The notes: a model not told the origin generated them from the letters alone. Positions 23,125 to 52,486 are shown, counted from the stretch's first letter. The stretch is DNA of 64,000 nt from a virus (IMGVR_UViG_3300023208_000003:32001-96000), one strand, 5' to 3'. A program made the numbers and translations.

Positions 23125-23665
23125 AATACATACTTGTTTTTTCTTTCTATGTTCGTCTGCATTTGCTGACATAATGATACCAAATGTGGCCCCAAATGAC
23201 TTAACACCAGATCAAAAAGCACAAATTGCTTTACAAGCTGCTCAATTTGCAAATCAAAACAAAACAATCGTGAACACGACGCCTGAACAGGTCAAACAAT
23301 GGGCAGATGTTGCCGACGCTCTTGCCAATGGTATTGGAAAAACAGCGCATTCATTGAATGTAGAAGTGAATGAATTCATAAAAAGTCCAGTAGGTATAAT
23401 GACCGCAGTTATGTTGTTTTGGAACTACATGGGTAAGGACTTTCTTGGAATTATATTTGGTACAGGTTGGCTAGCTGTCTCTTTACCTATTTGGTTATTT
23501 TTCTTTTGGAAATCTATCAACAAAACAGAAACAGAAGAGCACGGAAGTGGAGAGAATAAACAAAGTGTAACTACTAAAACCCTAGAGTATGATGGCGGGA
23601 TAGTAAGTGGATATTTGATAACACTTGCAGTTATTATATTTATTGGACTTTTTACAATCTTTTAA
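23118..23665 (+). CDS. Membrane protein; signal-peptide N-terminus appears frameshifted (in-frame ORF 23174-23665)
   Basis: GGAG RBS before ATG 23118 (MLKYILVF). The continuation FFLCSSAFA-D lies in the -1 frame after a T6 run. Hydrophobic segments follow downstream. Confidence 0.55.
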
Positions 23666-25299
23666 GATAAATCAGTGGCGTGCGTTCGGTAATGCCGCAA
23701 AAAAGCAGGGGCGTTATCAGTTCCTTTACGCATGCCACCAAATCCTTGTCCATGAATCATATACATAAACTCACCTTTCGTAGCATTTTGATAAATGGCG
23801 GTGTTTGAATTATTTTGTACCGCTTTACCTCCAATTGTTCCATTTGCCTTATACGTTGTATAAGCCTGCTTTTCCTCCTTAAGCATTATAATCATCGCTT
23901 CGGTTGATTTTTCAGGGTCGCAACGATTCTCACAGGTAGGTTCAATTCCTGCCTTTGCATAATACTCACCAGAAGTTCCATTCAACATTTGGTACAAACC
24001 AGTTGCTGATGATTTTGGATTTTTTGCGTATGGGTTATTACCACCCTCGATTGAACATAATTTTAAAAGATACTTTTTATCTTCTTCATCGAGTTCAGGG
24101 TGCTTGTCAGCCGTAGCGCGAACTTTTGCTTGAACTTCGGCAGCGCTTGGATGATTTTGCTTATAATTAGCTGGTCTGCAGGATGGAGCAGTCGAACCAA
24201 TTATTTGCTTATCTCCTGGAGCCGACTTACCATCATTGTATGTTCTACCATCTGGGCTATTTTCAAACTTAGGGCAACCGGTTTTTGCCTTTACATCAGC
24301 GTCAGATAACTTCTTTGGTGGAGTATTATCTTTTTTAAGCTGCTGGCCTGGCGCGTTTGGATTATCAGAAGCTGGATTAGTTCCTGTCGATTCTATTTTT
24401 TTGTTATCATTGATGTATGGCCATGGGTCAGTCTTACCGCCATTTGGTAAGATTAACTCAAAATGAAGGTGATTGCCAGTTCCAACGCCGGCATGACCTT
24501 CCTTAGCAATTGCTGTTCCCGAAGTTACCTTTTGACCGACACTAACATAAACCTGAGACATATGCGCGTACAGCGTGTCAGCTAAGTGAGTACCGTCTGG
24601 TGCAGTGTGCCGAATAATTACCTTATTGCCATAACCTTGAGATGTTCCATTTGAAACTGCTGCTATAACTTCGCCATCAGCAGCTGCTACAATATCAACA
24701 ATGCGACCACCACGCATCGCTAAGTCAATTCCTTTATGAAAATCAGTACATTTAGGGCAAGGCTTAGCACGGGGACCATAATCACTGGTTTTTACAGAAC
24801 CTGGCAACGGGTTAATTAAAGTAAGTTCGTTACCATTACACTTTTTAGCAGCCATGTTATAAGTTCGCTCATCAATTTCTTTGTTGTTTGCGTCAATTGC
24901 TTTTACTGTAAAAGTCAACGTCTTCTTTTCAAATTCATCTTTAATTGTACCTGATAACTTTCCACTTGTCCCATCGAAAGTTAGCCCTAAATCACTTGGT
25001 TGCTTTTCGGCACCTTGATCATCCTTAATTTTTAACTCATATTTAGGCGGGCTTTGATATGCTGCAGAAAGTGATCCCTCAGTTAAAACAAAAGTTTCAT
25101 CCATTTTCATTTCGCAATTAGCAGAAACAGAATTGTTTTTAATTCGATCAGGCGTTGGCGGAGTCGCTTGCATTTCATCAGCATCATCATCTCTAGCTGA
25201 AGCGCACTCAATGCTCTCTCCTTTTTGAAGATAATTATGAAGAACTTTTGCAATTCCTGATGATTTTTTAGCAGAAACTGAAGCGCAAGGGCAACCCAT
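23662..25299 (-). CDS. Multidomain peptidoglycan hydrolase: Ig-like + M23 peptidase + SLT/lysozyme-like
   Basis: LTFDGTSGKLSGTI (Ig/He_PIG-like), FHKGIDL...YAH...HLHFE (M23) and IEGGNNPYAKNPKSSATGLYQML (SLT). Confidence 0.85.
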   Translation of the reverse strand: MGCPCASVSAKKSSGIAKVLHNYLQKGESIECASARDDDADEMQATPPTPDRIKNNSVSANCEMKMDETFVLTEGSLSAAYQSPPKYELKIKDDQGAEKQPSDLGLTFDGTSGKLSGTIKDEFEKKTLTFTVKAIDANNKEIDERTYNMAAKKCNGNELTLINPLPGSVKTSDYGPRAKPCPKCTDFHKGIDLAMRGGRIVDIVAAADGEVIAAVSNGTSQGYGNKVIIRHTAPDGTHLADTLYAHMSQVYVSVGQKVTSGTAIAKEGHAGVGTGNHLHFELILPNGGKTDPWPYINDNKKIESTGTNPASDNPNAPGQQLKKDNTPPKKLSDADVKAKTGCPKFENSPDGRTYNDGKSAPGDKQIIGSTAPSCRPANYKQNHPSAAEVQAKVRATADKHPELDEEDKKYLLKLCSIEGGNNPYAKNPKSSATGLYQMLNGTSGEYYAKAGIEPTCENRCDPEKSTEAMIIMLKEEKQAYTTYKANGTIGGKAVQNNSNTAIYQNATKGEFMYMIHGQGFGGMRKGTDNAPAFLRHYRTHATDLS

Positions 25300-25300
25300 C

Positions 25301-25570
25301 TTACTTCACCTCATAAAAATGTTTTATTGCCTTAAGCTTTTCCTCGATAATATTCATTCTTTCCTCTGAGCGAATAATAAACATTGCAACATCTCGCTGA
25401 GTTATCTTATCAACGTCAAGCTGAAAGTCTTGTGGTGGTATCTCAAGCAGCTCTTGTGGCGGTTGCTTAAAAACATACTCGGTTTTAACTACTACGTTAG
25501 GTTTTGAAGGTGTTGCACAACCGCTTAAAAAAACTAACGAAAATGTTATGATAATTAGAATTTTATTCAT
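25301..25570 (-). CDS. o-spanin (Rz1-like lipoprotein)
   Basis: Lipobox LSGC after a hydrophobic leader, with a Pro-rich mature part (PPQELLEIPP). Confidence 0.8.
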   Translation of the reverse strand: MNKILIIITFSLVFLSGCATPSKPNVVVKTEYVFKQPPQELLEIPPQDFQLDVDKITQRDVAMFIIRSEERMNIIEEKLKAIKHFYEVK

Positions 25571-25576
25571 TTTTGC

Positions 25577-26218
25577 TTACAATTTTGCGTACTTTGAGAA
25601 ACCTTTTTCAATTAACTCAGCTTTTGTCTCTAAAAGATCAGATTTATTATGCACCGACTGCTTTATAATTGTAAGCACTTTTGTTAAATCTGAATTATCA
25701 TCATCGAAAAAAATACCAGGCTTTGTTTCATCAAATTTAATAAACATAATTTGAAGCGGATTTACAATTGCTTTACAACCATAAAAAACAATAGAAGCGC
25801 CTATTTTTTTCGGCAATCCTTTTAATGATGTTAAATTTACGCATCCCTCAAGAGACAGAAATCCAGTATAAGTAGGAGCGTGCTCAAGGCTTTTTAAAGC
25901 TACACAATTAACAATATACATATCACCAATTACAGTAATCGGCCCACCTTCAAGTGTTTCAAGCTTACTACAATCAGAAAGATCAAAATAGCTTTTAATA
26001 TACGAAGGAGAGCCTTTTAATGATGTAATCTTTGAATGATTAAAATCAGCATACCCCTTTAATTTGCAACCAGGAACATATTGATAAAACTTATATCTTT
26101 CAACTAAGCCATCAAGCGAATCCCAATATTGCGGTATTTCTAAATCGGCGTAGCAAATAGGAATGTTATCCGTATTAGCGACTGGTTCTTTAAAACGTTT
26201 AACTTCACTAAGCTTCAT
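25577..26218 (-). CDS. AKL-tag paralogue family member 1 (LRR-like SLxGxP repeats)
   Basis: SLKGSP, TLEGGP, SLEHAP and SLKGLP repeats. C-terminus DLLETKAELIEKGFSKYAKL. Confidence 0.8.
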   Translation of the reverse strand: MKLSEVKRFKEPVANTDNIPICYADLEIPQYWDSLDGLVERYKFYQYVPGCKLKGYADFNHSKITSLKGSPSYIKSYFDLSDCSKLETLEGGPITVIGDMYIVNCVALKSLEHAPTYTGFLSLEGCVNLTSLKGLPKKIGASIVFYGCKAIVNPLQIMFIKFDETKPGIFFDDDNSDLTKVLTIIKQSVHNKSDLLETKAELIEKGFSKYAKL

Positions 26219-26661
26219 TTTTTTTTACTGCTTCTAATGGTCTGAATGTCACGAAGCGTTTCGCGCAGAACCGGTGCAACCGGGCCATCGGCAAGCTTCG
26301 AGAGCTTCTTAGCTATATTGTCATATTGCTCATGGTTTTGGCGTATCACCTCGTTTAACCGGGTGACAGCTTGATATGCTTTAAGTTGTTCTTCCAGCAC
26401 CCGGTTCAAAGTTTCCTGGGTTGTACGGTTGGCATCAACTACAGTGTTTAGCTCTTGGGTAATTTGCCCAAGCTGCTGTTCGGCTTCTTTGTTCTTTTTG
26501 TTGAGGTACATCACGGTTCCTGCGGCGCCAATTAGTGCGATAGCAAGAACCCAGATTGTCCAACCTCGCTTTACAATGTTGGACGTACCTATCCAGGCAA
26601 CGCTAATTCCGTCCTTCGCTTTCTCTAACCAGGTAAGTGCTTGTTCGTTTGTATCACTCAT
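26215..26661 (-). CDS. i-spanin (Rz-like)
   Basis: Single TM (IWVLAIALIGAAGTVMYL), periplasmic coiled coil and C-terminal DGPVAPVLRETL. Confidence 0.75.
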   Translation of the reverse strand: MSDTNEQALTWLEKAKDGISVAWIGTSNIVKRGWTIWVLAIALIGAAGTVMYLNKKNKEAEQQLGQITQELNTVVDANRTTQETLNRVLEEQLKAYQAVTRLNEVIRQNHEQYDNIAKKLSKLADGPVAPVLRETLRDIQTIRSSKKK

Positions 26662-26662
26662 T

Positions 26663-27325
26663 TTAGTACTTCGCTATTTCTTTAAAACCATTTTCAATCA
26701 ACAACACTTTTAATCCCAGCGGATCATTTTCCTGAACATATTTTGAAACCTCTCTTTCAAAGCTTCTGCTCATTTCCCACTGTTTCATATCTGTCATAAT
26801 TTCAACAGTTTTTAGTCCTGGAATGCTGCAAAGATTTAGCCAACCCAATGTTTCAAAAGTGATTGATGCTTTTTCAGCGTGTTCAATTGTCTTTACTGCT
26901 TCAACCAAGTTAAAATTTCTATCATACTTATTGCTTGGAAAGCGAACACACTTTGATCGAATTTTTATACCTGATAGAGCGCCTTCATTAAAAGTTGTCC
27001 AGTAAAAATCAAATTTTGCTGGCTGCATTTGTTCATCATTTTTTAACAATAATTTTAAAGGTTCAATAAATTCAACGTCAACATCCATTGATTTTATTAA
27101 CGCAACTCTAAAAATTGAACTGCGAAATTTTGGATCCTTTTCTAAACCTAAGCCGCCGCCTTCAGTTAATTTTACTTTTTTTTCCGTAAAAGCTGGAATT
27201 GAATTTTTTACTTTATTATTGAACCAGCGGTGACCATGCATATTCGCATCATCAATCCAAACACTAATAAGAATTGGGTATTGAAAAAATTTAAGGCGTG
27301 CTTCTGATAATTCAATTAACTTCAT
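26663..27325 (-). CDS. AKL-tag family member 2 (divergent tag)
   Basis: Starts MKLIELSE. Ends DPLGLKVLLIENGFKEIAKY. Confidence 0.75.
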   Translation of the reverse strand: MKLIELSEARLKFFQYPILISVWIDDANMHGHRWFNNKVKNSIPAFTEKKVKLTEGGGLGLEKDPKFRSSIFRVALIKSMDVDVEFIEPLKLLLKNDEQMQPAKFDFYWTTFNEGALSGIKIRSKCVRFPSNKYDRNFNLVEAVKTIEHAEKASITFETLGWLNLCSIPGLKTVEIMTDMKQWEMSRSFEREVSKYVQENDPLGLKVLLIENGFKEIAKY

Positions 27326-28191
27326 AACTTTGCGTAAGCTCCTAAGCCGTTCTCAATTAACTCTGTCTTGCACTCAAGAATATCACCTACTTCTCCATCT
27401 GCAGATCGTATATAGTTGTTTATAATTTTTACAGCAGCTTCCATATTTTTAATTTTTGGCCCGGAACTATCAAAAAATGAAGATGTTTTATCAAGATAAA
27501 TTTCCCAAAGACGCACGCACAATAATGCAGATAGTAAATTAACAGGATTTTTCGCAGCGAAGCTAAAAGACTGGAGATGATCAAACTTTTTAAGGTTTTT
27601 TATATTAATGTTATCTGCAAAAAGTTTTAAAGATACTAAGCTCTCAGGTAAACCTTTTACATCAAGACTTGAATTTGCGTAAGCGCCTACAATTCTCATC
27701 CCTTTAACAAAAGAATCTGCTATGTCAAACGCTGGATAATTTGCATTACCAAGACGAATGTCAAATCCATCACTAATCGTAGCAGGAAATTCTTCCCAAG
27801 ATTTAAAGTTGCATCTTGAAAGAAATAGTCTAGTCATTTCATCAGGAAATCCAACAAAATTTTCAAAGCTCACTTTTAAAAATGATAATCTGCCGGCGTG
27901 CGTAATCTTAACGCGAAATTTTTCAACGCCACCATCATTTATAAAAAAGTCATCTGCGGAAACTTCATTTTGGTCAAGATTAACTTCTGATTGAGACACA
28001 TTTTTTATTATAAGTTCACCTTGAGAAATTATAGTATGAAGTGAACGCGGATTTATTTTATAAAAGCTGCTGCTCAAAAGCAAAGTTTCTTCAAAAAATT
28101 TTTCAACAGCGTCATAGGTGTCAAGCATCCAAGGACGATACGGAGTAATCTTTTTTCCAATATGTGGATTTTGTACCTCAAATAATTTCAT
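27322..28191 (-). CDS. AKL-tag family member 3
   Basis: Starts MKLFEV. Ends DILECKTELIENGLGAYAKL. Confidence 0.8.
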   Translation of the reverse strand: MKLFEVQNPHIGKKITPYRPWMLDTYDAVEKFFEETLLLSSSFYKINPRSLHTIISQGELIIKNVSQSEVNLDQNEVSADDFFINDGGVEKFRVKITHAGRLSFLKVSFENFVGFPDEMTRLFLSRCNFKSWEEFPATISDGFDIRLGNANYPAFDIADSFVKGMRIVGAYANSSLDVKGLPESLVSLKLFADNINIKNLKKFDHLQSFSFAAKNPVNLLSALLCVRLWEIYLDKTSSFFDSSGPKIKNMEAAVKIINNYIRSADGEVGDILECKTELIENGLGAYAKL

Positions 28192-29009
28192 AACTTTGCA
28201 AACTCCTCAAGCTTTGCTTCAATTAATTCTGCTTTACAGTCGAGCACGTCTTTTTCTTTGTGAAGGTGTTTAACGATAATACTGCAAGCTTCGCCAGCTC
28301 TTACCATTGGTTCTTCCTTATCAATACCAGGGCCAGGACCTACAGCTATAAGTTCAGGGCAAAGCAAGAATGAAAGTAGACCAGTCGATTCTTTAAAGTA
28401 AAAAGTAAATTGACGAACGTGCGGGTAAAACTTTCCAACCTTCTTAAAGTTAATTGAGTTTCCGCCTGCAAACATCGAGCGTACATCCTGTGGGCCACCT
28501 TCAAGCGTTGGGATATCACTTTGATCGGTTACACCATAAACAAAATTCTTGCAACTTACGTGTGAGATATCAAAAGGTTTATATCCTTTCAAGTAAAAAT
28601 TTAAATCCTCATGAATAATCTGTGGAAACTCGTCAAAACTTTCAATTTCAGCTTCGTCAAGCGATAAAGTATTAACTGTATCAGGAAAACCTGCAAAATT
28701 TTTAAGTCGGACTCCTGCTGGTATTTGAAGCGTGTTAATATGCGACCACTTTGCTGGCAAAATATGGTAGCCATTTTTTTCAATGAAAAAAGAATCTATA
28801 GTTGGACCAAAAGACCCTTTAGGTTTGACAAAAATTGAATCATGACAGCTTACCTCTAAATTGCGAGGGTTGATTTTTGCCTTGTCATTGTCAAACAGTT
28901 TTAGCCCTTGAAGATACTCTTGTACCTCACGGTATGTTTTTAACATCCACGGGCAGTACGGTGTAACTTCGCGGTCTAAATAAGGTTGTAAAACTTCAAA
29001 TACTTTCAT
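28188..29009 (-). CDS. AKL-tag family member 4 (closest to member 3)
   Basis: Starts MKVFEV and shares 'TPY.PWML.TY', 'KINPR.L' and 'NF.GFPD' with member 3. Ends DVLDCKAELIEAKLEEFAKL. Confidence 0.8.
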   Translation of the reverse strand: MKVFEVLQPYLDREVTPYCPWMLKTYREVQEYLQGLKLFDNDKAKINPRNLEVSCHDSIFVKPKGSFGPTIDSFFIEKNGYHILPAKWSHINTLQIPAGVRLKNFAGFPDTVNTLSLDEAEIESFDEFPQIIHEDLNFYLKGYKPFDISHVSCKNFVYGVTDQSDIPTLEGGPQDVRSMFAGGNSINFKKVGKFYPHVRQFTFYFKESTGLLSFLLCPELIAVGPGPGIDKEEPMVRAGEACSIIVKHLHKEKDVLDCKAELIEAKLEEFAKL

Positions 29010-29665
29010 AATTTTGCATTTTGTGAATATCCTTGTTCAATTAACTCAGCTTTAACGTCTAAAAGATCATGATTTGACCTAAGCGCGCCTTGAATTATTT
29101 TTGCCCAAGGAGTTTGATTTCCTGTAATAGTTATAAATTTAATGTAAGGAATTAACATTAGCCCTAAACCACCAACATTAATAAACTGCGGATTGTTTAA
29201 AATTATTTGATTTGCAAATGTAAATTTTTTATTAACACCTATTAAACTATTTAAAAAATTATGCGAACAATAAAGCTTTATTGAATAGTACTCATATGTT
29301 TCAGAATTAGGAAGTTCGCGAAAGCAAAGTTGCATATCATTGTCAATTCCAAGCTTATCACCAGTCACTTTAATTCCAACGTCATTTAAAATTTCATTTA
29401 CTTTATCAAGTTCATCCATTGTTATATTTGGTTTACAATTAAACAAGACTCTTATATAATGATTGCGTTTACCTGATAAAGTACCATTATCAAACATATC
29501 AGAATCAACATATTCAATACCTGGCAGAAATGTAGTGTCGTTAAGCGCGTCAATAACATTTTGTAAAGCAGAATAATCATCAAAGTTATTAGAAAATGAC
29601 ATTTTAGACTTAAGTGTAAGCCAATTTGGCGCCATCTCTATTAAAAATTGCTTAAAGCTTTGCAT
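29006..29665 (-). CDS. AKL-tag family member 5
   Basis: Starts MQSFKQFLIE. Ends DLLDVKAELIEQGYSQNAKL. Confidence 0.8.
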   Translation of the reverse strand: MQSFKQFLIEMAPNWLTLKSKMSFSNNFDDYSALQNVIDALNDTTFLPGIEYVDSDMFDNGTLSGKRNHYIRVLFNCKPNITMDELDKVNEILNDVGIKVTGDKLGIDNDMQLCFRELPNSETYEYYSIKLYCSHNFLNSLIGVNKKFTFANQIILNNPQFINVGGLGLMLIPYIKFITITGNQTPWAKIIQGALRSNHDLLDVKAELIEQGYSQNAKL

Positions 29666-30434
29666 ATTGACTAAATCCCTTTTCTATTAATTCTGCCTTA
29701 CAGTCAAGCATGTCACGTTCACCTTTTAAATGATTACTGATAATTTCAAACCATAATTCATTTTTTGTTATTGCGAAATTTGAATGAATAGAAAACTCTC
29801 CTTTTATTAATAAAATTCCAAGAACATTACTTTGAATATACGGAATAGTTCCAGCAGTAAAAACTATTTCACTAAATCCGTCTGCTAAAACACGAATATT
29901 TGAATACTGACTTTTCTTTTCATTAATAATAGTAGGGATCATTTTGTGAATATTCGTAAGTGATGTCGGTGAGCTTGCCTCAATAAAAACATCATCAACA
30001 TTATCAACTACGATACCTTTAAACGGAAGATTAATCCATACAAAACTATTAACTTCCATTTTTATGTCTGAACCAAATTCCGCACGAAGCTGTTGAATAA
30101 ACCCATTCCGTAACTTTAAGCAATCAACGCTTTGAACCAATGGAAATGACATTTCAAGTTCATATACCGGGCCATCAGCTCCAAGTGACGTTAAAATATC
30201 ATCGTCTTCATAATTATGTGTTCGCTTTAATGAAAAAGCGCGCTTAAAGTTATTTTTAACAGTGTTAAACTCTTCGACCGTAGCTGGAAATCTTCGCTCA
30301 AGATCAGATTTGCTTATTTCGTGATCTTCTCCATTAAAAAGTTCATCATCAGATTCAATAAAAATCTTAGGAACTATTTTAAAAGCTGTTACTGGTTGCA
30401 ACCCCTCTTTTAAGAAATGTTTAAAGTTTTGCAT
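29652..30434 (-). CDS. AKL-tag family member 6
   Basis: Likely start MQNFKHFLKE (30434). Ends DMLDCKAELIEKGFSQYAKL. Confidence 0.8.
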   Translation of the reverse strand: MQNFKHFLKEGLQPVTAFKIVPKIFIESDDELFNGEDHEISKSDLERRFPATVEEFNTVKNNFKRAFSLKRTHNYEDDDILTSLGADGPVYELEMSFPLVQSVDCLKLRNGFIQQLRAEFGSDIKMEVNSFVWINLPFKGIVVDNVDDVFIEASSPTSLTNIHKMIPTIINEKKSQYSNIRVLADGFSEIVFTAGTIPYIQSNVLGILLIKGEFSIHSNFAITKNELWFEIISNHLKGERDMLDCKAELIEKGFSQYAKL

Positions 30435-31098
30435 GCTGTCCAAATCCATTTTTAATTAATTCTGTTTTACATTCAAGCAGGTCACGATCTTCACTTTTTA
30501 AGTAACCGTTCAAAGTACTTAACCAAACCGGTATATCATCAGTATCACAACGTAAAAATTCAAGATCATCAATTAATAAAAAACCAAGACCGCCCTCTTT
30601 AAATTCATTAATATCAAAAAGACTTAAAGTCTTAAATGAAAAAGTATCCTTTGTAATTTTAATTTTTTTATGAATACCGCAAAGACTTTCAAATTTAGTG
30701 TTACCATTTAAAAACAACTTAAAACCATCTGGTGACCAGACATTGTTTGGCATTTTAAAAAGATCAGCAAATATATTAACTGAAAATATTGAATATCCTA
30801 ATTCGCTAATTTGTTTTTCAATCCATTTAAATGTAGATTGCGAAATAAGTTCAGTGCACGGTTTAATCGCTTCAAAATCAAATTCAAGTTCACTACCACG
30901 ATCTAGATAAAAATCAATCGGTCGCAAATAAGGTTTAAATGAACTTTCATTCTTAAAGCTATAAACTAAACCACCAATATTATCTTTGAAATGATTAAGT
31001 TCTTCGCTAGATCTAGTAAAATTTACATCTAATACGATTTTAAAAAGTGCGTCATAATCAGGTTCAGCTTCTATTAAAAATTGCTTAAAGTTTTTCAT
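30421..31098 (-). CDS. AKL-tag family member 7
   Basis: Likely start MKNFKQFLIE (31098, ATGA overlap with the upstream gene). Ends DLLECKTELIKNGFGQHAKL. Confidence 0.8.
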   Translation of the reverse strand: MKNFKQFLIEAEPDYDALFKIVLDVNFTRSSEELNHFKDNIGGLVYSFKNESSFKPYLRPIDFYLDRGSELEFDFEAIKPCTELISQSTFKWIEKQISELGYSIFSVNIFADLFKMPNNVWSPDGFKLFLNGNTKFESLCGIHKKIKITKDTFSFKTLSLFDINEFKEGGLGFLLIDDLEFLRCDTDDIPVWLSTLNGYLKSEDRDLLECKTELIKNGFGQHAKL

Positions 31099-31637
31099 GG
31101 GGTCAACCAACACCTGTATTCTACGTGCATTGCATTTACAAAGATTCGCTCAAGCTCTGCTGGGCTAATACAAGTATCAGTGATTGGAAATCCGCCTTTC
31201 TTCCACATTTTTGCCGCCATTTCAGAACAAAATTCACCTTCTTCATTCACTGCTGGAAGCCAACAATATTGTTTTATGCCAGACCAAATAGCTTTCAAGT
31301 AACTGTATGGAGCTTTATTAATTTTAGAAAGTAAATCATCTGAAAATAATTTGAAATCAACATATGATGGCATCGCAAGAACATGAAGATCTTGTTTTGA
31401 ATATTCAGAAAGTGAAATAATTCTACGATGACTATCCATGGCTTCAACTAAAAACAAACGTTTTTCTTTTGTTAACTCATTTGTTAACCAAATTGCTATT
31501 CCAACATGATAAATTGGCGAGCCAGTAAAAAATGAAATCGTGCTGGCAAAAAGGGAGAATCTTTTAGGTCGAAGTATTGTTACAATATCACCACTTTCAA
31601 TTAACTCTCTACCTTGCGCGTACTGTAAAACTTTCAT
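31095..31637 (-). CDS. Permuted papain-like (NlpC/P60, YiiX/YaeF-type) amidase/hydrolase
   Basis: SGDIV, YHVGI (His) preceding FCSEM (Cys), i.e. the permuted catalytic order. Confidence 0.8.
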   Translation of the reverse strand: MKVLQYAQGRELIESGDIVTILRPKRFSLFASTISFFTGSPIYHVGIAIWLTNELTKEKRLFLVEAMDSHRRIISLSEYSKQDLHVLAMPSYVDFKLFSDDLLSKINKAPYSYLKAIWSGIKQYCWLPAVNEEGEFCSEMAAKMWKKGGFPITDTCISPAELERIFVNAMHVEYRCWLTP

Positions 31638-31873
31638 TAGACTATCCTTACTGAGCCAGTGCGAGCTACTGAATGATTTATTGTCAATGAATTGGCCGAT
31701 GTATACTCTATTGCTTCAGGAAACATAACAACTTTCTGCCCATTATAATCAATTCTTACGTCTAAAATTGGATACTGCTGATTTAAATTATGATTGATTA
31801 CCCAAATTGCTGAACTCGTATCTTGTGTAAAATTATAAGAAGGAACTCCAGGTGTCATTAAACTTTCAGACAT
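31637..31873 (-). CDS. Small virion protein, WxIxHNL beta-module
   Basis: FTQDTSSAIWVINHNLNQQYP module shared with neighbouring genes. Confidence 0.65.
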   Translation of the reverse strand: MSESLMTPGVPSYNFTQDTSSAIWVINHNLNQQYPILDVRIDYNGQKVVMFPEAIEYTSANSLTINHSVARTGSVRIV

Positions 31874-31886
31874 AATTTTCTCCTGT

Positions 31887-32126
31887 TTAAGATGCTATTC
31901 TAGCTACACCAGAATATGGCGCAGAAAAAGTAATAATAACAGTTCCAACAGTATTACAATCAACACCTAATGGCACCATTTTAACCCTGCCATACCCTTC
32001 AATATCAACCATTACATCGACGGCAACAGGGTTTGGAAAATTATGTAAAATAGCCCAAGTATCACTAGGTGAAGCTTGTTCAAAATTTACTGTTTGAAGA
32101 ACTGTGTGTTGTGCAAAGCTTGCCAT
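31887..32126 (-). CDS. Small virion protein, WxIxHN beta-module
   Basis: FEQASPSDTWAILHNF module. Confidence 0.65.
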   Translation of the reverse strand: MASFAQHTVLQTVNFEQASPSDTWAILHNFPNPVAVDVMVDIEGYGRVKMVPLGVDCNTVGTVIITFSAPYSGVARIAS

Positions 32127-32139
32127 ACATATTCTCCAA

Positions 32140-32754
32140 TTAAATTAATTTTGCCACGCCTACTTGTGGGTCAGTAAAACCAATAGTAAGCTGATTGACT
32201 GAATTATGTGTGATAACTTGAGGTTGAACTTCGACATTGCCAACGAAAACACGCACAATAGGATCATATCCAAGACCGTGATTTATTACCCAGCTAGATG
32301 CGGCAACTGTTTGATTCCAGGTAAAAGCAATTGTTGGTCTAACATTGCCAGAGATAGCTCCAGCCATTAACACAGCTTTACCGGCCATCTGCATTCCTAA
32401 CTTGACTTGAACTTGAGTATTATTAATTACATTAATTTCATCAGGAATAACCGCTTTATTTTCAGTATCCCAAATTTGAACAACTAAATCAGTACTATTC
32501 AACGGATGAATGATCGTCCATGTGGTGGTGCCAGTTTGCTGAATATGAACGTACATATCAATCTCATTTGTAAGAGGAATCCAAATTGGAAGTCCTCCAA
32601 CAATTGCCGCGCAAATATATACGATTTTATTTAAGAAAATTAAACGACCAACAACAGGTTCAGCTGGAAATTGTGTTTCAGTTTCCATTACGGCCTGTTG
32701 AATGAAATTATTTTGTAGGTCTATATTGCCGAAGTATTTCATTGAAAGCTCCAA
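32140..32754 (-). CDS. Virion structural protein with two WxIxH modules
   Basis: WTIIHPLN and WVINHGLG modules. N-terminus resembles that of the 831-aa fibre. GATAAATA upstream at 32771-32778. Confidence 0.7.
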   Translation of the reverse strand: MELSMKYFGNIDLQNNFIQQAVMETETQFPAEPVVGRLIFLNKIVYICAAIVGGLPIWIPLTNEIDMYVHIQQTGTTTWTIIHPLNSTDLVVQIWDTENKAVIPDEINVINNTQVQVKLGMQMAGKAVLMAGAISGNVRPTIAFTWNQTVAASSWVINHGLGYDPIVRVFVGNVEVQPQVITHNSVNQLTIGFTDPQVGVAKLI

Positions 32755-32791
32755 TTGAATTGATTTTACATATTTATCGCAAAGACAAAGA

Positions 32792-32815
32792 AAAGGGGCG
32801 CTTAAGCGCCCCTTT
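32792..32815 (-). terminator. Terminator hairpin
   Basis: Perfect palindrome AAAGGGGCGCTT|AAGCGCCCCTTT with T-runs on both strands, after the 831-aa gene. Confidence 0.8.
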
Positions 32816-32842
32816 CTTACATCGATTTAATTAACTAGTGTC

Positions 32843-35338
32843 TTATGCAAGACCCATTACAACTGCCTTAATAGCAACTGCTACGTTGAAGGTAATTGTC
32901 AAAGTAGAGCTGTTATTAAATACGATGCTCTGAGGAATGATAACTTCGTCTGAACTATCGCAAATGGTTACGTTGCAGAACTTCTGACCAAGGTTATGGG
33001 TAACAGTGTGAGAAGTTGCGGCACCGCCGGTGTACAAGTAGTACATTGCGGTGACACGGTTGTTGATCTGAGTATCAAGTGTCTTAAGAGCAGTATCAAG
33101 AGCAGAAACTGCAGCCTTGAACGTTGTTGATGCGTCAACATAATTGGTACCAGACCATGCGTTCAATGAACCGTCAGTGTTAAGACCAACAGAAGATTCA
33201 ACAGCGTTAACTTCAGCAAGTAAGCTAGATGCGCTGCTTTCAATTGAATCAAGACGAGTATCAACAGCTTCGATTGCAGCCTGAACAGTAGCAGGTGCGC
33301 CTGGAAGACTTGCAGTTGTGTTAACAAAGGTAATTGCAGATGCCTTGTGGGTGTGGTTACCAGGAGCCGCTTCGGTTGCACCGTCGCCCAAGGAAACACC
33401 GACAGCGTCAGCAGTAACAACGATAGTACCTACACCAGTCCAATCATTTGGATCGTCAAGACCTGTTGCACCAGTACCAGCAGCAGAAACAACTGCTAGA
33501 GCAGTACCGTTACCACCAATCAAACCAGCACCTGCAACGGAAGCGGTAAGCTCTGCTTCAGTGATAGTGTTTGTGGTTACCTTCAAGCCGTTTGCAGACT
33601 GAACGAGACGACCATTACCGCCGAGATCAAGCAAGAGGTGAACTTTTGCATTGGTAGCGGTAGAACGGGAAGTTGCGTTTTCAGTAAGAATAAGCGCAGA
33701 AGAAGTAGGATCGTAAAGATCAATACCAACTTCATCACCAGGAAGTTCTACGATACCTGCACCAAGGTTGACATTGAGCGTGTTGCCAGTCTTAGAAAGA
33801 CCAATACCAGCTGTTACACCAGAAGCACCGTTGAACTGAACAAAAGAAACTGCGTCAGTACCAACAGTAGTAACTGCGTTAATCTGTGTCCAAGCGGTGT
33901 GGGCGTATACAGTGCCGTTTTCAACAAGAACTGCAGAGCCTTCAAATTCGGCAGCGGCGTCAAAATCTGTTGTACGAACCCAGGTGCCGGCCTTTGCTAA
34001 ATAGATACCGTTTTCTGCAGCTGCAGTCTGAGCAGTAACAAGAACGCGCTCATCAGCAGAAAGCATGTGACCATCAAGAGTCAAAAGACCGCCAGTGGTA
34101 AGATCAACGTTTGCTGCTGCAAGAGCGGCAACTGGTTGCTTCCAAGAAAGACCAGTGATAGCTGCTTCCAACTGATTCTTGTTAATTGCGTCAGTACCTG
34201 CAACACCAGGAGCAAGGTTAGTAAGCTTGTAGCTGTTGAAGCTGATATCATGAGCAACGTTAGAAGAACCTGCATTATCCGCGCGGATGAACATTGATTC
34301 GTCAAGAACTGCAATGTTGCCAAGACCAAGAGAGGTACGAGCAGCAGCGCCGCGCTTAAGAGTCCAACGAGAACCTTCTGCACCACCAGTACCAACCATA
34401 ACGTCATTCTGACCGCCGTGGGTAACAGCAACTGTATTGATTGTAAGGGTTTCAGAAGAATCTGCAGCAGGTGCAAAACCAGCGATTGTATCAAGGTCTG
34501 CATCCCAAGCTTGAACATTTGAACCAAGGGCAACACCGAGTTCAGTACGGAAAGCGGCGGCGTCAATAATAGTGAAGGTGCCATCACCAGCAGAAACACC
34601 AATGATATAACGGTTAGATGCGGTTGGAGTAAGAGCTGCAAGAGAAGTAAGCTGAGCATCAAGTGGTTGCTTGTTATCTAACTGATCTTGAATTGCGGAT
34701 GTTACGCCATCAACATAGTTAAGTTCAACGGTCGTAAGAGTTGCGCCGGTAAGAATATTAAGCTCAGCAGCTGTAGAAGTAACAGCGTGAAGCTTAACTA
34801 AATCTGCAGTTACAACACCTGAAGTATGAAGCTGATTAACTTCAGAAGCGGTAGATGTAACATTAGAAACATCAGCAAGTACTAAAGTGTGATTATCCCA
34901 CTTTGAAGTAGTACCGTTGAACATTGCAACTTGACCAGTTGTGGCTGCGAGAACGTTAACGTCGTCAAGTTCAGCAAAAGTATTGTGTGCAGTCATTGCG
35001 GTCTGCAACAAGTTAATTGCGTTAGTTACTGAGGTAGCACCTGCAGCGTAACCAGAGAAAGCTGCGCTGTTGAAAGTACCATCAGCGTTAACTGCTGTAC
35101 CAAGAGAAGACTCAAGGTAATCAACTTCTTGCTGGAGAGCGGTAGCGTTACCACCAGTAGCAAAAGCCATCCAGGAGGTGCCGTTATTGTAGTAGTAGAT
35201 GTTATCTACTGTATTAAAATAGATACGGCCCTTTTCAGAAGATGAAACTGTAGGCGCTGTAGTTAAGCGCTCAATCACAAAATTCTGAACTTCACCCTGG
35301 CCGCCATTGTTAAGGGTAATATTACCATTTATTCTCAT
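32843..35338 (-). CDS. Abundant fibre-like virion protein (head/tail fibre)
   Basis: Ala/Thr-rich, with ERVLVTAQ...NGIY...WVR and AGIGLSKTGNTLNV fibre motifs, coiled coils and a strongly biased, highly expressed-type codon usage. Confidence 0.75.
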   Translation of the reverse strand: MRINGNITLNNGGQGEVQNFVIERLTTAPTVSSSEKGRIYFNTVDNIYYYNNGTSWMAFATGGNATALQQEVDYLESSLGTAVNADGTFNSAAFSGYAAGATSVTNAINLLQTAMTAHNTFAELDDVNVLAATTGQVAMFNGTTSKWDNHTLVLADVSNVTSTASEVNQLHTSGVVTADLVKLHAVTSTAAELNILTGATLTTVELNYVDGVTSAIQDQLDNKQPLDAQLTSLAALTPTASNRYIIGVSAGDGTFTIIDAAAFRTELGVALGSNVQAWDADLDTIAGFAPAADSSETLTINTVAVTHGGQNDVMVGTGGAEGSRWTLKRGAAARTSLGLGNIAVLDESMFIRADNAGSSNVAHDISFNSYKLTNLAPGVAGTDAINKNQLEAAITGLSWKQPVAALAAANVDLTTGGLLTLDGHMLSADERVLVTAQTAAAENGIYLAKAGTWVRTTDFDAAAEFEGSAVLVENGTVYAHTAWTQINAVTTVGTDAVSFVQFNGASGVTAGIGLSKTGNTLNVNLGAGIVELPGDEVGIDLYDPTSSALILTENATSRSTATNAKVHLLLDLGGNGRLVQSANGLKVTTNTITEAELTASVAGAGLIGGNGTALAVVSAAGTGATGLDDPNDWTGVGTIVVTADAVGVSLGDGATEAAPGNHTHKASAITFVNTTASLPGAPATVQAAIEAVDTRLDSIESSASSLLAEVNAVESSVGLNTDGSLNAWSGTNYVDASTTFKAAVSALDTALKTLDTQINNRVTAMYYLYTGGAATSHTVTHNLGQKFCNVTICDSSDEVIIPQSIVFNNSSTLTITFNVAVAIKAVVMGLA

Positions 35339-35659: not shown

Positions 35660-36658
35660 TTAGAAGCAAATTAACATCGCATATCCACTTTGTGGAGCGC
35701 CGAATGTTATCTGTACAGTGTCTAAATCAATAACTTGAACTTTATCTGGCAGAATTGAAGTAAAACCACCATCATAAATTGACCATTGAATACGCATTGT
35801 GTGTTTGTTGTGTGTTACTACCCAAATAGTGGCAGCAACGTTTTGAACATGCTCATATCCCTGTGGGCCTGAGGCAGTTACGTGAATATTTTGTACGGTT
35901 GTCGCTAAGTTGCTAAGAGCTTGTTGAACATTAGTTGCGCCTGGTATTGAACTAATAGGTGTAATCGAAATTTCAGTAGCAGCGTGTTTAGCATTACCAT
36001 CATAAGTAAGGTGATTCTGAACTGAGTTGTTTAGTGTGGTAATGTTAACGTTGTTAATTGTTCCATTAACAGACATATTACCTGAAATTGACGCAGTTCC
36101 AGTAATAAGCGTTGCTTGGAGAAACGCGTTACCATCTTTGTCAATTCTAAATACTGGGGCACCGCCAAACGTTTTACGTACAGTAATTAAATCAACAGCT
36201 GGAACAACTCCGGCGTCAGGTTCAATTTTTAGCGGGGTTACGTTAGCATTTGATGGAGTAATTTGCCAGTGATCTGAATCTTGAATGTTTGTATTGACAA
36301 TAGTTGAATTGCCAAGAACATTTAAATCACCAGTAATAGTAACAGCGCCAGTGCTTGAATCAACCTTAAAGAAAATTGTGGAATTGTTATCATCATAGAT
36401 AACAAAATCCTTACCAGTATCGAGCTTAATTGAAGCATTGCCTTGATTATCATGAGATGCATCGTAAATTGTTTGTAAGTCTAGAGCATTGCCGTGATGA
36501 CCACTTGTTGATGAGCCATCATCAAATAAAAGTCCTCTACCGCCAACGGTAAACGTTGAATTACTTGTACCACCCGCATTAATCGTTTCACCATCACGAA
36601 GACGATCAAAAATACCATCTTCGCTAAGATAAATAACCCGTCTGATGCTTGTTGTCAT
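35660..36658 (-). CDS. Virion structural/fibre protein
   Basis: Beta-rich, with C-terminal WVVTHNKH module. Lies in the structural operon. Confidence 0.65.
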   Translation of the reverse strand: MTTSIRRVIYLSEDGIFDRLRDGETINAGGTSNSTFTVGGRGLLFDDGSSTSGHHGNALDLQTIYDASHDNQGNASIKLDTGKDFVIYDDNNSTIFFKVDSSTGAVTITGDLNVLGNSTIVNTNIQDSDHWQITPSNANVTPLKIEPDAGVVPAVDLITVRKTFGGAPVFRIDKDGNAFLQATLITGTASISGNMSVNGTINNVNITTLNNSVQNHLTYDGNAKHAATEISITPISSIPGATNVQQALSNLATTVQNIHVTASGPQGYEHVQNVAATIWVVTHNKHTMRIQWSIYDGGFTSILPDKVQVIDLDTVQITFGAPQSGYAMLICF

Positions 36659-52072: not shown

Positions 52073-52486
52073 TTATAGTTTCGCGTACTCGCTTAGTCCT
52101 GTCTCAATAAGGTCAGCTTTGCAATCAAGCAAATCACCTGATCCGTCTTGTCGATAATGTTGATTTATAATTTCAATTGCCTTTTTTAATTTTTCTGGTT
52201 TATTACAAATAATGTTTTTTATATTTTTTATTAGCAAAAACTTTAAAATTCGTTTTAGAGATGTACAATCAGTGCAACTAAAATCACCGTCAACTGAAGA
52301 TGGCGCGCCTTGTAGAGATGTCAGTGACGTACAATCAGAGCAACTAAAATCACCAGTTAAATGACAACCTGGTGTATAACCAGGATATTTTTTTGGTAAT
52401 TTGGATAAATCTGTCCATTTGGCAGGTACTTTAATATTACCTTTATAAGTTGGGATTACATTTTCAAATAATTGATTTATTTTCAT
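52073..52486 (-). CDS. AKL-tag family member 8 (short, LRR-like repeat)
   Basis: GDFSCSDCTSLTSLQGAP / GDFSCTDCTSL repeat. Ends DLLDCKADLIETGLSEYAKL. Confidence 0.8.
   Translation of the reverse strand: MKINQLFENVIPTYKGNIKVPAKWTDLSKLPKKYPGYTPGCHLTGDFSCSDCTSLTSLQGAPSSVDGDFSCTDCTSLKRILKFLLIKNIKNIICNKPEKLKKAIEIINQHYRQDGSGDLLDCKADLIETGLSEYAKL

What the first reader, a model, noticed from the sequence alone, without database searches (positions are those of the whole stretch)
25577..31098. Array of tagged paralogues: T4 capsid-targeting-like N-termini, hypervariable cores and an invariant C-terminal 'ELIExGxxxYAKL' tag (candidate packaged/injected effector arsenal)
Seen in the sequence: seven genes here, plus an eighth at 52073, end in a shared ~22-aa motif D(L/I/V/M)L(D/E)xKxELIExGxxx(Y/F/H/N)AKL*. 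They begin with short M-K/Q-x-F/L...E leaders (MKNFKQFLIE, MQSFKQFLIE, MQNFKHFLKE, MKLFEV, MKVFEV, MKLIELSE, MKLSEV, MKINQLFE). The 100-250 aa cores in between are highly divergent, and some carry LRR-like SLxGxP repeats. The tag codons differ synonymously, so selection acts on the peptide. Established knowledge: T4 internal proteins IPII/IPIII start MKTYQEFIAE, a capsid-targeting sequence cleaved after Glu by the prohead protease, and the injected IPI inhibits the GmrSD defence nuclease. Inference: this is a diversified set of head-packaged proteins delivered with the DNA. The cores would be variable binding surfaces (anti-defence decoys or inhibitors), and the C-terminal tag would be a second addressing signal for docking, ejection or a common partner.
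Basis: partly seen in the sequence, partly recalled or inferred. Interest (0 to 1): 0.88.

Follow-up and report, generated by a model that had tools for sequence, protein, structure and literature searches.

The report
Leader-tagged LRR protein family, jumbo phage
An uncultured giant relative of phage T4 carries at least 34 diverged copies of an unnamed leucine-rich-repeat protein (eight in this window); most start with a T4-style "load into the head, then clip" peptide, so they are probably carried in the virus particle, but the "C-terminal tag" is the end-cap of the fold, not a free address label.

Summary
Seven co-oriented genes (25577-31098, minus strand) and an eighth (52073-52486) share a gap-free C-terminal motif and short N-terminal leaders. 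They belong to a 34-member family in this 197-kb, about 55%-complete T4-type jumbo phage record. The family has 1517 representative clusters in metagenomes and no Pfam or PHROG model.

New here:
- The conserved C-terminal unit is about 70 aa. AlphaFold2 puts the "tag" in the last two helices of a three-helix cap on an LRR solenoid.
- Cores are divergent paralogues with two architectures, not unrelated sequence.
- Tag and leader are partly dual-coded. TAT GCN AAR CTT TAA (YAKL*) read +1 gives ATG CNA ARC TTT AA (MQ/P-S/N-F-K). Other junctions are ATGA.
- The phage has a T4 gp21-type protease, and its capsid protein has YLTE aligned to T4's cleavage site.
- ATAAATA late-promoter elements head the operons that hold family genes.
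- The two truly leaderless members sit directly behind early-type promoters.
- In cultured Ralstonia phage RsoM2USA, member ORF89 (leader MKTFKQFLSE) is reported among the ten main virion protein bands.

Best reading (about 0.5): head-loaded, protease-clipped LRR binders. Injection and anti-defence roles are untested. Other windows of this scan reported the same family earlier.

The parts
25577..26218 (-). Family member 1, 213 aa. Leader MKLSE, LRR solenoid, C-terminal cap ending …AELIEKGFSKYAKL. It lies between the i-spanin and o-spanin genes.
   Evidence: AF2 mean pLDDT 90.6 with residues 1-10 at pLDDT 42. All top structural matches are LRR proteins, Z 10-11.7.
26663..27325 (-). Family member 2, 220 aa. 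Leader MKLIELSE, degenerate tag …LLIENGFKEIAKY.
   Evidence: HMM E 4e-7
27322..28191 (-). Family member 3, 289 aa. Leader MKLFE. ATGA overlap with the downstream member.
   Evidence: Full-length paralogue of member 4 (31% identity, E 1e-36).
28188..29009 (-). Family member 4, 273 aa. Leader MKVFE.
29006..29665 (-). Family member 5, 219 aa. Leader MQSFKQFLIE. Its first 14 nt (29652-29665) lie inside the YAKL* codons of member 6.
29652..30434 (-). Family member 6, 260 aa from the ATG at 30434. Leader MQNFKHFLKE, ferredoxin-like N-terminal domain, short LRR and cap. Its first 14 nt (30421-30434) lie inside the HAKL* codons of member 7.
   Evidence: AF2 mean pLDDT 75.7 with the C-terminal module above 90. 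N-terminal domain has generic ferredoxin-like matches, Z 6-8.6.
30421..31098 (-). Family member 7, 225 aa from the ATG at 31098. Leader MKNFKQFLIE. First member of the array; no family gene lies upstream, so its leader is not dual-coded.
52073..52486 (-). Family member 8, 137 aa, the minimal form. Leader MKINQLFE, two LRR units and cap. Last gene of the baseplate-wedge operon.
   Evidence: A late-type ATAAATA lies at genome 88310 (window about 56310, minus strand) upstream of that operon.
32771..32777 (-). ATAAATA late-promoter-type element. It heads the operon that runs through 32754…31095 into the seven-gene array.
   Evidence: Of 89 sites in the genome, 51 lie within 60 nt upstream of a same-strand start; same-composition control words give 3-15% (up to about 25% for the two overlapping shift variants AATAAAT and TAAATAA).
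32791..32816 (-). Intrinsic terminator hairpin (11 pairs followed by a T run). It closes the tail-fibre gene upstream of the promoter element.
26215..26661 (-). Rz-like i-spanin. Not a family member; it is interleaved in the array.
   Evidence: phrog_214, E 3e-6
25301..25570 (-). Lipoprotein, Rz1/o-spanin-like (LSGC lipobox). Not a family member; it lies downstream of member 1.
   Evidence: phrog_456, E 1.6e-6

Best explanation
These genes are members of a large, unnamed paralogous family of small proteins specific to jumbo T4-type phages.

Each protein has three parts:
- A 5-11-residue N-terminal leader of two classes: M-x-x-F-K-x-F/Y-L-x-E, or M-K-L/I/V-x-E/Q-L-F/L-E. Both end in (L/I/F)-x-E.
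- A variable body: either LRR turns or a ferredoxin-like domain.
- A constant module of about 70 aa made of the last LRR turns plus a three-helix cap. The 'tag' is the end of this cap.

Most likely mechanism:
1. The genes are transcribed late, inside structural operons, and are translationally coupled through ATGA or 14-nt overlaps.
2. The leader acts like the T4 capsid-targeting sequence or gp24 propeptide and takes the protein into the scaffolding core of the prohead.
3. The gp21-type (S77) prohead protease removes the leader after the Glu.
4. The mature LRR proteins stay in the head and probably leave with the DNA, acting as a diversified set of binders for host targets.

Shown here: family anatomy, predicted fold, leader motif and its positional enrichment, presence of the protease, promoter elements, dual coding.
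Taken from the literature: one member of a cultured relative is found in virions.
Inferred: core binding, cleavage, ejection, targets.
For: - T4 leaders taken from AF158101 resemble both classes: ipII/ipIII MKTYQEFIAE, ipI MKTFKEF…, gp24 MAKINELLRE. Compare MKTFKRFLTE, MKNFKQFLIE, MKINQLFE, MKLNQLIRE.
- [LIVF]xE falls in the first 12 residues of 75% of 122 external representatives, against 11-23% in later windows. Within the genome it is 26/34 family versus 40/191 other ORFs, Fisher p = 6.6e-10.
- The leader is disordered or detached in both AF2 models (pLDDT 42 and 53), while the rest of member 1 is at pLDDT above 90.
- An S77 protease and a gp23 homologue are in the record. The phage's own gp23 KKYLTE|T aligns to T4 GSFLTE|A.
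- Every large record holding the family also has S77: this record, the 164-kb contig G001, RsoM2USA (344 kb), and a 330-kb contig with 25 members.
- ATAAATA elements head the operons that contain family genes, including the window array.
- The two truly leaderless members directly follow early-type TTGTAC…TATAAT promoters.
- RsoM2USA ORF89 is a family member with leader MKTFKQFLSE (HMM E 5e-10; computed mass 28.56 kDa against the paper's 28.57). It is listed among the 10 main virion bands by LC-MS/MS (PMC8504454).
- Between orthologues, leader (80-90% identity) and tag (86-100%) are kept while cores drift (50-63%).
- T4 literature: internal proteins are diverse and share only the targeting sequence (PMC3012670). 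[quoted passage not shown]
Against: - There are no virion or N-terminal data for this phage.
- The RsoM2USA virions were purified on a sucrose cushion only. The band assignments are worded 'most likely', and the list also includes a putative transposase, so contamination is possible.
- Family proteins are mildly acidic (median pI 5.7, equal to the proteome median), unlike T4 internal proteins at pI 9.0-9.65.
- The first 4-5 leader residues of class 1 (M-Q/P-S/N-F-K) are fixed by overlap with the upstream YAKL* codons. A non-family gene uses the same overlap start (MPSFKARYIPK), so part of the resemblance to T4 ipI may be a by-product.
- A loose [LIVF]xE motif also occurs at 21% of other N-termini.
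- Members downstream of the early-type promoters do carry leaders (genome 103035, 103694), so timing is not cleanly late.
- The targeting-sequence model does not explain why a constant C-terminal module is needed.
- There is no sequence homology to T4 IPI, IPII or IPIII (best E 0.5).
Confidence: 0.5

Rival explanations
1. These are cytoplasmic host-takeover adaptors that are not packaged. The variable LRR or N-terminal domain binds different host proteins. The constant C-terminal module docks all of them to one common partner, in the manner of poxvirus ankyrin/PRANC or F-box-LRR adaptor families. The N-terminal leader is only a family-specific start shaped by gene overlap and translational coupling.
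For: The architecture is variable body plus constant small helical C-terminal module. Dual coding fixes part of the leader. Early-type promoters precede two members and would also transcribe the leader-bearing members downstream of them. pI is ordinary and acidic. Structural matches include LRR adaptors such as FBXL17 and SDS22.
Against: The free part of the leader (x-F/Y-L-x-E, or L-F-E) is conserved across representatives that come from clusters built at 50% identity, and also in first-of-cluster genes with no overlap. The leader is not part of the fold. Most clusters sit in late structural operons behind ATAAATA. ORF89 of RsoM2USA is reported in virions.
Confidence: 0.22
2. These are external virion accessory or adhesin proteins. 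The LRR units are displayed on the baseplate or fibres as exchangeable host-surface binders, and the constant C-terminal module is the docking piece.
For: The window copies lie in tail-fibre, baseplate and lysis operons. In another phage a member also sits next to the baseplate-wedge gene (L015). Internalin-like LRR structural matches. Virion detection in RsoM2USA fits this reading as well.
Against: Other clusters flank head, sheath and terminase genes. There are no trimerisation or fibre-like domains. The leaders end in the protease motif and are disordered. Between 34 and about 60 different external adaptors per particle has no precedent.
Confidence: 0.12
3. This is a selfishly amplifying tandem repeat family with little function. 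Its termini are conserved only because the dual-coded junction is needed for expression of the next copy.
For: The 14-nt and ATGA junctions are stereotyped within and between phages: 11 + 11 of 36 motif matches in this genome (3 of these lie outside the family), and 23 + 7 of 34 in other contigs, where some loci overlap on the same contigs. Two members look frameshifted.
Against: Singletons and last-in-array genes keep the peptide with different codons (TAC…CTA TAA), so selection acts on the protein. The whole 70-aa module and the LRR framework are conserved, not just the junction. There are 1517 representative clusters across environments.
Confidence: 0.04

Closest known systems
Phage T4 / T-even internal proteins IPI, IPII, IPIII and Alt, and the gp24 propeptide: head proteins carrying a capsid-targeting sequence that gp21 cleaves
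   Same: An N-terminal peptide of 6-19 residues ending in (L/I)-x-E. The protein bodies are diverse and share only the leader. The phage has a gp21-type S77 protease and a gp23 with a homologous cleavage site. The genes lie beside lysis genes, as T4 ipII/ipIII lie beside e.
   Different: No sequence homology in the bodies. The proteins are acidic rather than basic. There are 34 or more paralogues per genome, against 3-4 in T4. The fold is LRR or ferredoxin-like with a constant C-terminal module. Packaging and cleavage have not been demonstrated.
Paralogous ejection-protein families of phiKZ-like giant phages (for example SPN3US gp53/gp54 and phiKZ gp93 with shared N-terminal propeptides)
   Same: Paralogues with near-identical N-terminal propeptides that are cut after Glu by a gp21-related prohead protease, packed in the head and ejected (PMC5694885).
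   Different: The motif there is A/S-x-E and the protease family is S80. Those proteins are not LRR, form much smaller families, and have no constant C-terminal module.
Bacterial LRR effectors and adhesins (IpaH/SspH1 LRR domains, YopM, XopL, internalins)
   Same: The predicted fold is a short-repeat LRR solenoid with a helical cap: Z 9-11.7, 141-156 aligned residues, rmsd 2.9-4.8 Å. The family is used as a diversified set of binders.
   Different: No NEL or other catalytic domain, no secretion signal, 8-18% identity, and Pfam LRR models do not score. This is fold resemblance only.
Poxvirus ankyrin-repeat/PRANC (F-box-like) multigene families
   Same: A viral multigene family built as variable repeat domain plus a small constant C-terminal helical module. 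This is an analogy from my own knowledge and was not tested.
   Different: Different repeats and different C-terminal domain, a eukaryotic ubiquitin context, and no N-terminal leader.

Membership tests
T4-type head proteins bearing a capsid-targeting sequence (functional class) | N-terminal targeting peptide or propeptide of about 6-19 aa ending in (L/I)-x-E | tested here: met
   26 of 34 members match by regex. One more has the form MQNKSLKQFLCE, and two more have the leader in an upstream frameshifted piece. Three have Asp or no Glu, and two have no leader. Among external representatives, 75% match. T4 reference leaders were read from AF158101.
T4-type head proteins bearing a capsid-targeting sequence (functional class) | The phage encodes a gp21-type (Peptidase S77) prohead protease, a scaffold core, and a gp23 with a cleaved propeptide | tested here: met
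   PF03420 at 86 bits. PF07068 at 322 bits. The phage's own YLTE aligns to the T4 FLTE|A site. A scaffold-like ORF lies between the protease and the capsid gene.
T4-type head proteins bearing a capsid-targeting sequence (functional class) | The protein is present in mature capsids and its leader has been removed | not testable with these tools
   The only support is indirect. RsoM2USA ORF89, a family member, is listed among the virion bands (PMC8504454). Its N-terminal state is unknown.
T4-type head proteins bearing a capsid-targeting sequence (functional class) | Small, basic, DNA-associated protein (true of IPI-III, not of Alt) | tested here: not met
   Median pI is 5.7, range 4.9-9.1. T4 IPI*, IPII* and IPIII* are at 9.0-9.65.
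T4 IPI / IPII / IPIII (homology) | Sequence similarity of the mature protein | tested here: not met
   BLASTP of the T4 internal proteins against all ORFs of the record gives a best E of 0.5.
Leucine-rich repeat superfamily | Solenoid of 20-30-aa repeats with a parallel beta-sheet | tested here: met
   The AF2 model has mean pLDDT 90.6. The 50 best VIA matches are almost all LRR proteins (a few receptor L-domains), Z 8.6-11.7. A repeat of about 22 aa, LTSLxGxPxxVxGxFxCxxC, is visible in the sequence.
Leucine-rich repeat superfamily | Match to curated LRR sequence models | tested here: not met
   No Pfam family scores at E <= 0.1 for any of the seven members scanned, and no PHROG matches. In the Atlas, LRR_4 or LRR_1 appears in only 14-40% of members of some neighbouring clusters.
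IpaH/SspH (NEL) or YopM type III effectors | LRR domain combined with a NEL ligase domain or a type III secretion context | tested here: not met
   The proteins end at the LRR cap, there is no further domain, and the context is a phage.

The most novel reading that the evidence does not exclude
Jumbo T4-type phages carry, inside the capsid, a rapidly diversifying arsenal of dozens of LRR (and ferredoxin-like) binder proteins. These are loaded by a T4-like targeting leader, clipped by the prohead protease and ejected with the DNA. They would be a phage counterpart of bacterial injected LRR effectors, aimed at host defence or takeover targets. The family expands by tandem duplication of a unit whose stop region (YAKL*) doubles as the next copy's start (MQSFK). 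The invariant L-I-E in the cap may be a second protease site or a shared docking surface.
Probability: 0.3. Interest if true: 0.8.

Novelty: new variant of a known kind. Interest (0 to 1): 0.66.

Why it matters
If the leaders work as in T4, this is the largest known set of capsid-delivered proteins in any phage, about 12% of the recovered genome. It would also be the first built on an LRR binding scaffold. It would show that head-loaded cargo with only the leader conserved scales from 3-4 proteins in T4 to dozens in jumbo phages. It would give a sequence signature (leader plus 70-aa cap) for mining candidate injected anti-defence proteins from metagenomes. A cultured handle exists in RsoM2USA ORF88-90, so the idea can be tested directly. 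The dual-coded YAKL*/MQSFK junction is a neat example of overlapping coding that constrains both ends of a protein family.

Tried and rejected
- Pfam and PHROGs scans of the members gave no family.
- megablast and tblastn against 50,697 cultured phage records found no near relative of the region or of member 6. Only RsoM2USA appeared, with a consensus-like member as query.
- Foldseek against the PDB gave only weak LRR rows, E >= 0.045. VIA-wide was needed to get clear matches.
- The search for related loci with alignment A1 failed for lack of a conserved stretch. With the CKAELIE pattern it found nothing confirmed.
- The exact T4 late promoter TATAAATA is not enriched in the window (4 found against 6 expected), although all four copies sit upstream of starts. 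The 7-mer ATAAATA is the informative element.
- The generic sigma-70 consensus scan of the array region was at background (41 found against 37.7 expected).
- Considered and rejected: the tag as a eukaryote-style PTS1 (AKL-COOH) or an ssrA-like degron. There is no supporting context, and the tag is folded into the cap.
- Considered and rejected: an archaeal host, suggested by the 'Candidatus Nitrosotenuis' label on close relatives. Spanins, an M23/transglycosylase protein and T4-type structural genes point to a Gram-negative bacterial host, so the label looks like mis-binning.
- Literature searches found no description of this family.
- I could not compute burial of tag residues, because model coordinates are not exposed to scripts.


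Full report
**What is there.** The window is bases 32001-96000 of a 197,099-bp IMG/VR virus record that CheckV rates about 55% complete. On the minus strand between 25577 and 31113 lie seven co-oriented ORFs, and there is an eighth at 52073-52486. All end in D-[LIVM]-L-[DE]-x-K-x-E-L-I-E-x-G-x-x-x-[YFHN]-A-K-L*, with no length variation in the last ~20 residues. The copy at 26663-27325 is degenerate (…IAKY). The ORF at 26215-26661 inside the array is an Rz-like i-spanin. The ORF at 25301-25570 is an o-spanin-like lipoprotein, and 23662-25299 is an M23 peptidase with a transglycosylase-like C-terminal part.

**It is one large family, not a local curiosity.** An HMM of the last 75 residues finds 34 members in the record at E 1e-7 to 1e-28; the next ORF scores 0.02. 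The members form clusters at genome positions 57.5-63.1 kb (the window array), 84 kb, 99-105 kb, 106.7-108.6 kb, 123.6-125.6 kb, 134.9-143.7 kb and 147.8 kb. That is about 12% of the recovered DNA.

The conserved unit is about 70 aa: …I.S.VLGLLLI…W..II..HL.G..D.LECK.ELIE.G…YAKL*. Many pairs also align over most of their length at 25-40% identity. The cores are therefore diverged paralogues, not unrelated inserts.

A profile search of 1.84 billion representative proteins gives 1517 clusters at E <= 1e-3 and 170 at E <= 1e-10. In the listed matches the module almost always sits at the extreme C-terminus. None carries a name or a Pfam domain, and Pfam and PHROGs give nothing for the members themselves.

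Other virus contigs hold 3-16 copies each. A 330-kb contig filed under a Pseudobdellovibrionaceae MAG holds 25. The cultured Ralstonia phage RsoM2USA holds 4.

**Fold.**
- AlphaFold2 on member 1 (213 aa, 41-sequence alignment) gives mean pLDDT 90.6. Residues 1-10 are disordered (pLDDT 42). Short beta-strands recur through the body, and three helices (177-190, 195-204, 208-211) end the chain.
- An exhaustive structural comparison returns almost only LRR proteins at the top: designed LRR 4r58 at Z 11.7, XopL LRR at Z 11.7, internalin A at Z 11.4, then Roco, YopM and IpaH/SspH1 LRR domains at Z 9-11. Foldseek alone was weak.
- The 22-aa 'tag' corresponds to the last two helices of this cap.
- Member 6 (260 aa, pLDDT 75.7) has a generic ferredoxin-like N-terminal domain (Z 6-8.6) followed by the same C-terminal module at pLDDT above 90. 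Its leader is a low-confidence helix.
- The family is therefore built as leader, then variable body (LRR turns or another small domain), then a constant mini-LRR with cap.
However, its conservation (86-100% between orthologues whose cores are 50-63% identical) exceeds what a cap alone would need.

**Dual coding of tag and leader (new).** Codon choice in the tag follows the type of junction with the next gene.
- When the next gene is a class-1 member, the tag reads TAT GCN AAR CTT TAA (or ATT, TTT, TAG variants). The +1 frame of the same bases reads ATG CNA ARC TTT AA, giving M-(Q/P/L/R)-(S/N/R)-F-(K/R). This is a 14-nt overlap, seen in the window at 29652-29665 and 30421-30434.
- When the next gene is a class-2 member, the tag ends …CTA TGA or TTA TGA. 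This is an ATGA overlap that gives M-K, seen at 27322-27325, 28188-28191 and 29006-29009.
- Where no family gene follows, Tyr is TAC and Leu is CTA, TTG or CTC.
- Counts from the tag-motif scan: 11, 11 and 11 junctions of the three kinds in this genome, out of 36 motif matches (3 of them outside the family). In other contigs there are 23 fourteen-nt and 7 ATGA overlaps out of 34, though some of those loci overlap on the same contigs, so a few junctions are counted twice.
- A non-family gene (genome 138184) uses the same 14-nt start (MPSFKARYIPK). The M-x-S-F-K part is therefore a by-product of the overlap, and the following x-F/Y-L-x-E is the freely selected part.
- First-of-cluster genes with no overlap still read MKNFKQFLIE, MKTFKRFLTE and MRFKQFLTE. 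The peptide is therefore also selected in its own right.

**Is the leader a T4-type head-loading signal?**
- I read the T4 sequences from AF158101. ipII and ipIII start MKTYQEFIAE. ipI starts MKTFKEF…TITE. gp24 starts MAKINELLRE. The gp23 cleavage site is GSFLTE|AEIGG.
- The family's class-1 leaders (M-x-x-F-K-x-F/Y-L-x-E) and class-2 leaders (MKINQLFE, MKLNQLIRE, MKLKELFE) resemble these closely.
- [LIVF]-x-E lies in the first 12 residues of 75% of 122 external representatives, against 11-23% in the next seven 12-residue windows.
- Within the genome the figures are 26/34 family against 40/191 other ORFs (p = 6.6e-10). Paralogy inflates this significance.
- The phage encodes an S77 (gp21-type) protease and a gp23 homologue. 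Its gp23 has KKYLTE|T aligned to the T4 cleavage site.
- All four large records that hold the family also hold S77.
- From the literature: T4 internal proteins are diverse and share only the targeting sequence (PMC3012670). All T4 internal head proteins bind the core through it, gp21 cuts after Glu, and Alt loses just six residues at ITE-6 (PMC5694885). That parallels the 5-residue leaders MKLFE, MKLSE and MKLIE in the window.

**Timing.**
- The 7-mer ATAAATA, the core of the T4 late promoter, occurs 89 times in the record. Fifty-two copies lie in the 5% of the record that is non-coding. Fifty-one lie within 60 nt upstream of a same-strand start. Same-composition control words give 3-15%, and up to about 25% for the two overlapping shift variants.
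- The element precedes portal-region, scaffold, sheath, tube and baseplate genes.
- It also precedes the operons that contain family genes. One copy lies at window 32771-32777, directly after a strong terminator at 32816-32791. It heads the gap-free gene string 32754…31095, then the seven members, then the spanins and the M23 gene.
- The singleton at 52073 is the last gene of the baseplate-wedge operon.
- A stereotyped early-type promoter (TTGTACTTTTT…N…TATAAT, about 10 copies, mostly in the 154-196 kb region) directly precedes the two members that truly lack a leader (genome 102379 and 104395).
- Two other 'leaderless' members have a leader-bearing fragment in another frame, which indicates a frameshift.

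**Experimental anchor in a cultured relative.** RsoM2USA (MG752970) ORF88, 89 and 90 are family members. Their leaders are MKLHEISE, MKTFKQFLSE and MSFKTFLES, and the HMM E-values are 7e-18 to 5e-10. The paper on this phage lists ORF89 (28.57 kDa; I compute 28.56 kDa) among the ten most abundant bands of purified virions identified by LC-MS/MS (PMC8504454). There are caveats. Purification used a sucrose cushion only, the assignments are worded 'most likely', a putative transposase is in the same list, and nothing is said about N-terminal processing.

**Points against, or unexplained.**
- The proteins are mildly acidic (median pI 5.7), unlike T4 internal proteins at 9.0-9.65.
- There is no homology to the T4 internal proteins.
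- Part of the leader is dual-coded.
- Leader-bearing members downstream of the early promoters would also be made early.
- The targeting-sequence model gives no reason for a constant C-terminal module.
- The invariant L-I-E in the cap matches the protease motif, but it lies in a packed helix. I treat this as a curiosity.

**Verdict.** The head-loading reading of the leader is the best available explanation (about 0.5) and can now be tested in a cultured phage. The 'second address tag' reading of the C-terminus is not supported: the tag is the end of the LRR cap and is partly constrained by overlapping coding. Injection and anti-defence roles remain inference.

I found no paper that describes the family. 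Other windows of this scan had already reported the same family and reached a similar reading. I tested the protease, leader and copy-number claims independently. I add the dual-coded junction, the promoter analysis, the pI contrast, the structural status of the tag and the RsoM2USA virion record.

Noticed in passing
window 25301-26661 (-): The spanin pair is split. The Rz-like i-spanin (26215-26661) and the o-spanin-like lipoprotein (25301-25570) are separated by family member 1 (25577-26218). The 545-aa M23 peptidase with a transglycosylase-like part follows at 23662-25299.
   Followed up: partly
whole record; for example window 2178, 7881, 21716 (+) and 32771, 52034, 56310, 63079 (-): ATAAATA behaves as the late promoter of this phage. 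Fifty-one of 89 copies lie within 60 nt upstream of a same-strand start, against 3-15% for most same-composition control words.
   Followed up: yes
genome 14027, 102327, 104360, 154469, 171725, 175255, 178561, 182318, 195764 (+), outside the window: A stereotyped early-type promoter class, TTGTACTTTTT…(16-18 nt)…TATAAT. Two copies directly precede the only truly leaderless family members.
   Followed up: partly
genome 99658-100359 and 100895-101567 (outside the window): Two family members appear frameshifted. A short leader-bearing ORF (MKVKQLLQE…, MKIQQLLE…) lies in another frame just upstream of the body. This is either an assembly error or a pseudogene.
   Followed up: partly
P0153, P0012, P0158; L032: Close relatives of this phage are deposited as contigs of MAGs labelled 'Candidatus Nitrosotenuis sp.' (107 and 220 kb) and 'Pseudobdellovibrionaceae' (330 kb; 25 family members plus an S77 protease). 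These are almost certainly mis-binned jumbo-phage contigs.
   Followed up: partly
window 31637-31873, 31887-32126, 32140-32754, 35660-36658 and the C-terminus of 32843-35338 (-): A small domain (phrog_21918, about 65 aa) recurs in five neighbouring tail-fibre-region genes. This is a second, smaller paralogous set just upstream of the array.
   Followed up: no
window 31095-31637 (-): A 180-aa ORF lies directly upstream of the array and overlaps it. It has only a weak match to the permuted papain-like amidase family C92 (E 0.049), so its function is unclear.
   Followed up: no
window 14676-21014 (+), 38358-43478 (-), 43468-51996 (-): Three giant ORFs (2112, 1706 and 2842 aa) lie in the structural region. 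They were not characterised here.
   Followed up: no
genome 130224-132848 (outside the window) and RsoM2USA ORF86: RsoM2USA ORF86 is a 96-kDa Walker-A protein also listed among the virion bands. Its homologue in this record is 43% identical over 840 aa and lies just upstream of the largest family cluster.
   Followed up: partly
window 13102-14613 (+): An ATP-grasp protein similar to RimK (phrog_2599, 'ribosomal protein S6 glutaminyl transferase', E 5e-23) sits in the structural region.
   Followed up: no
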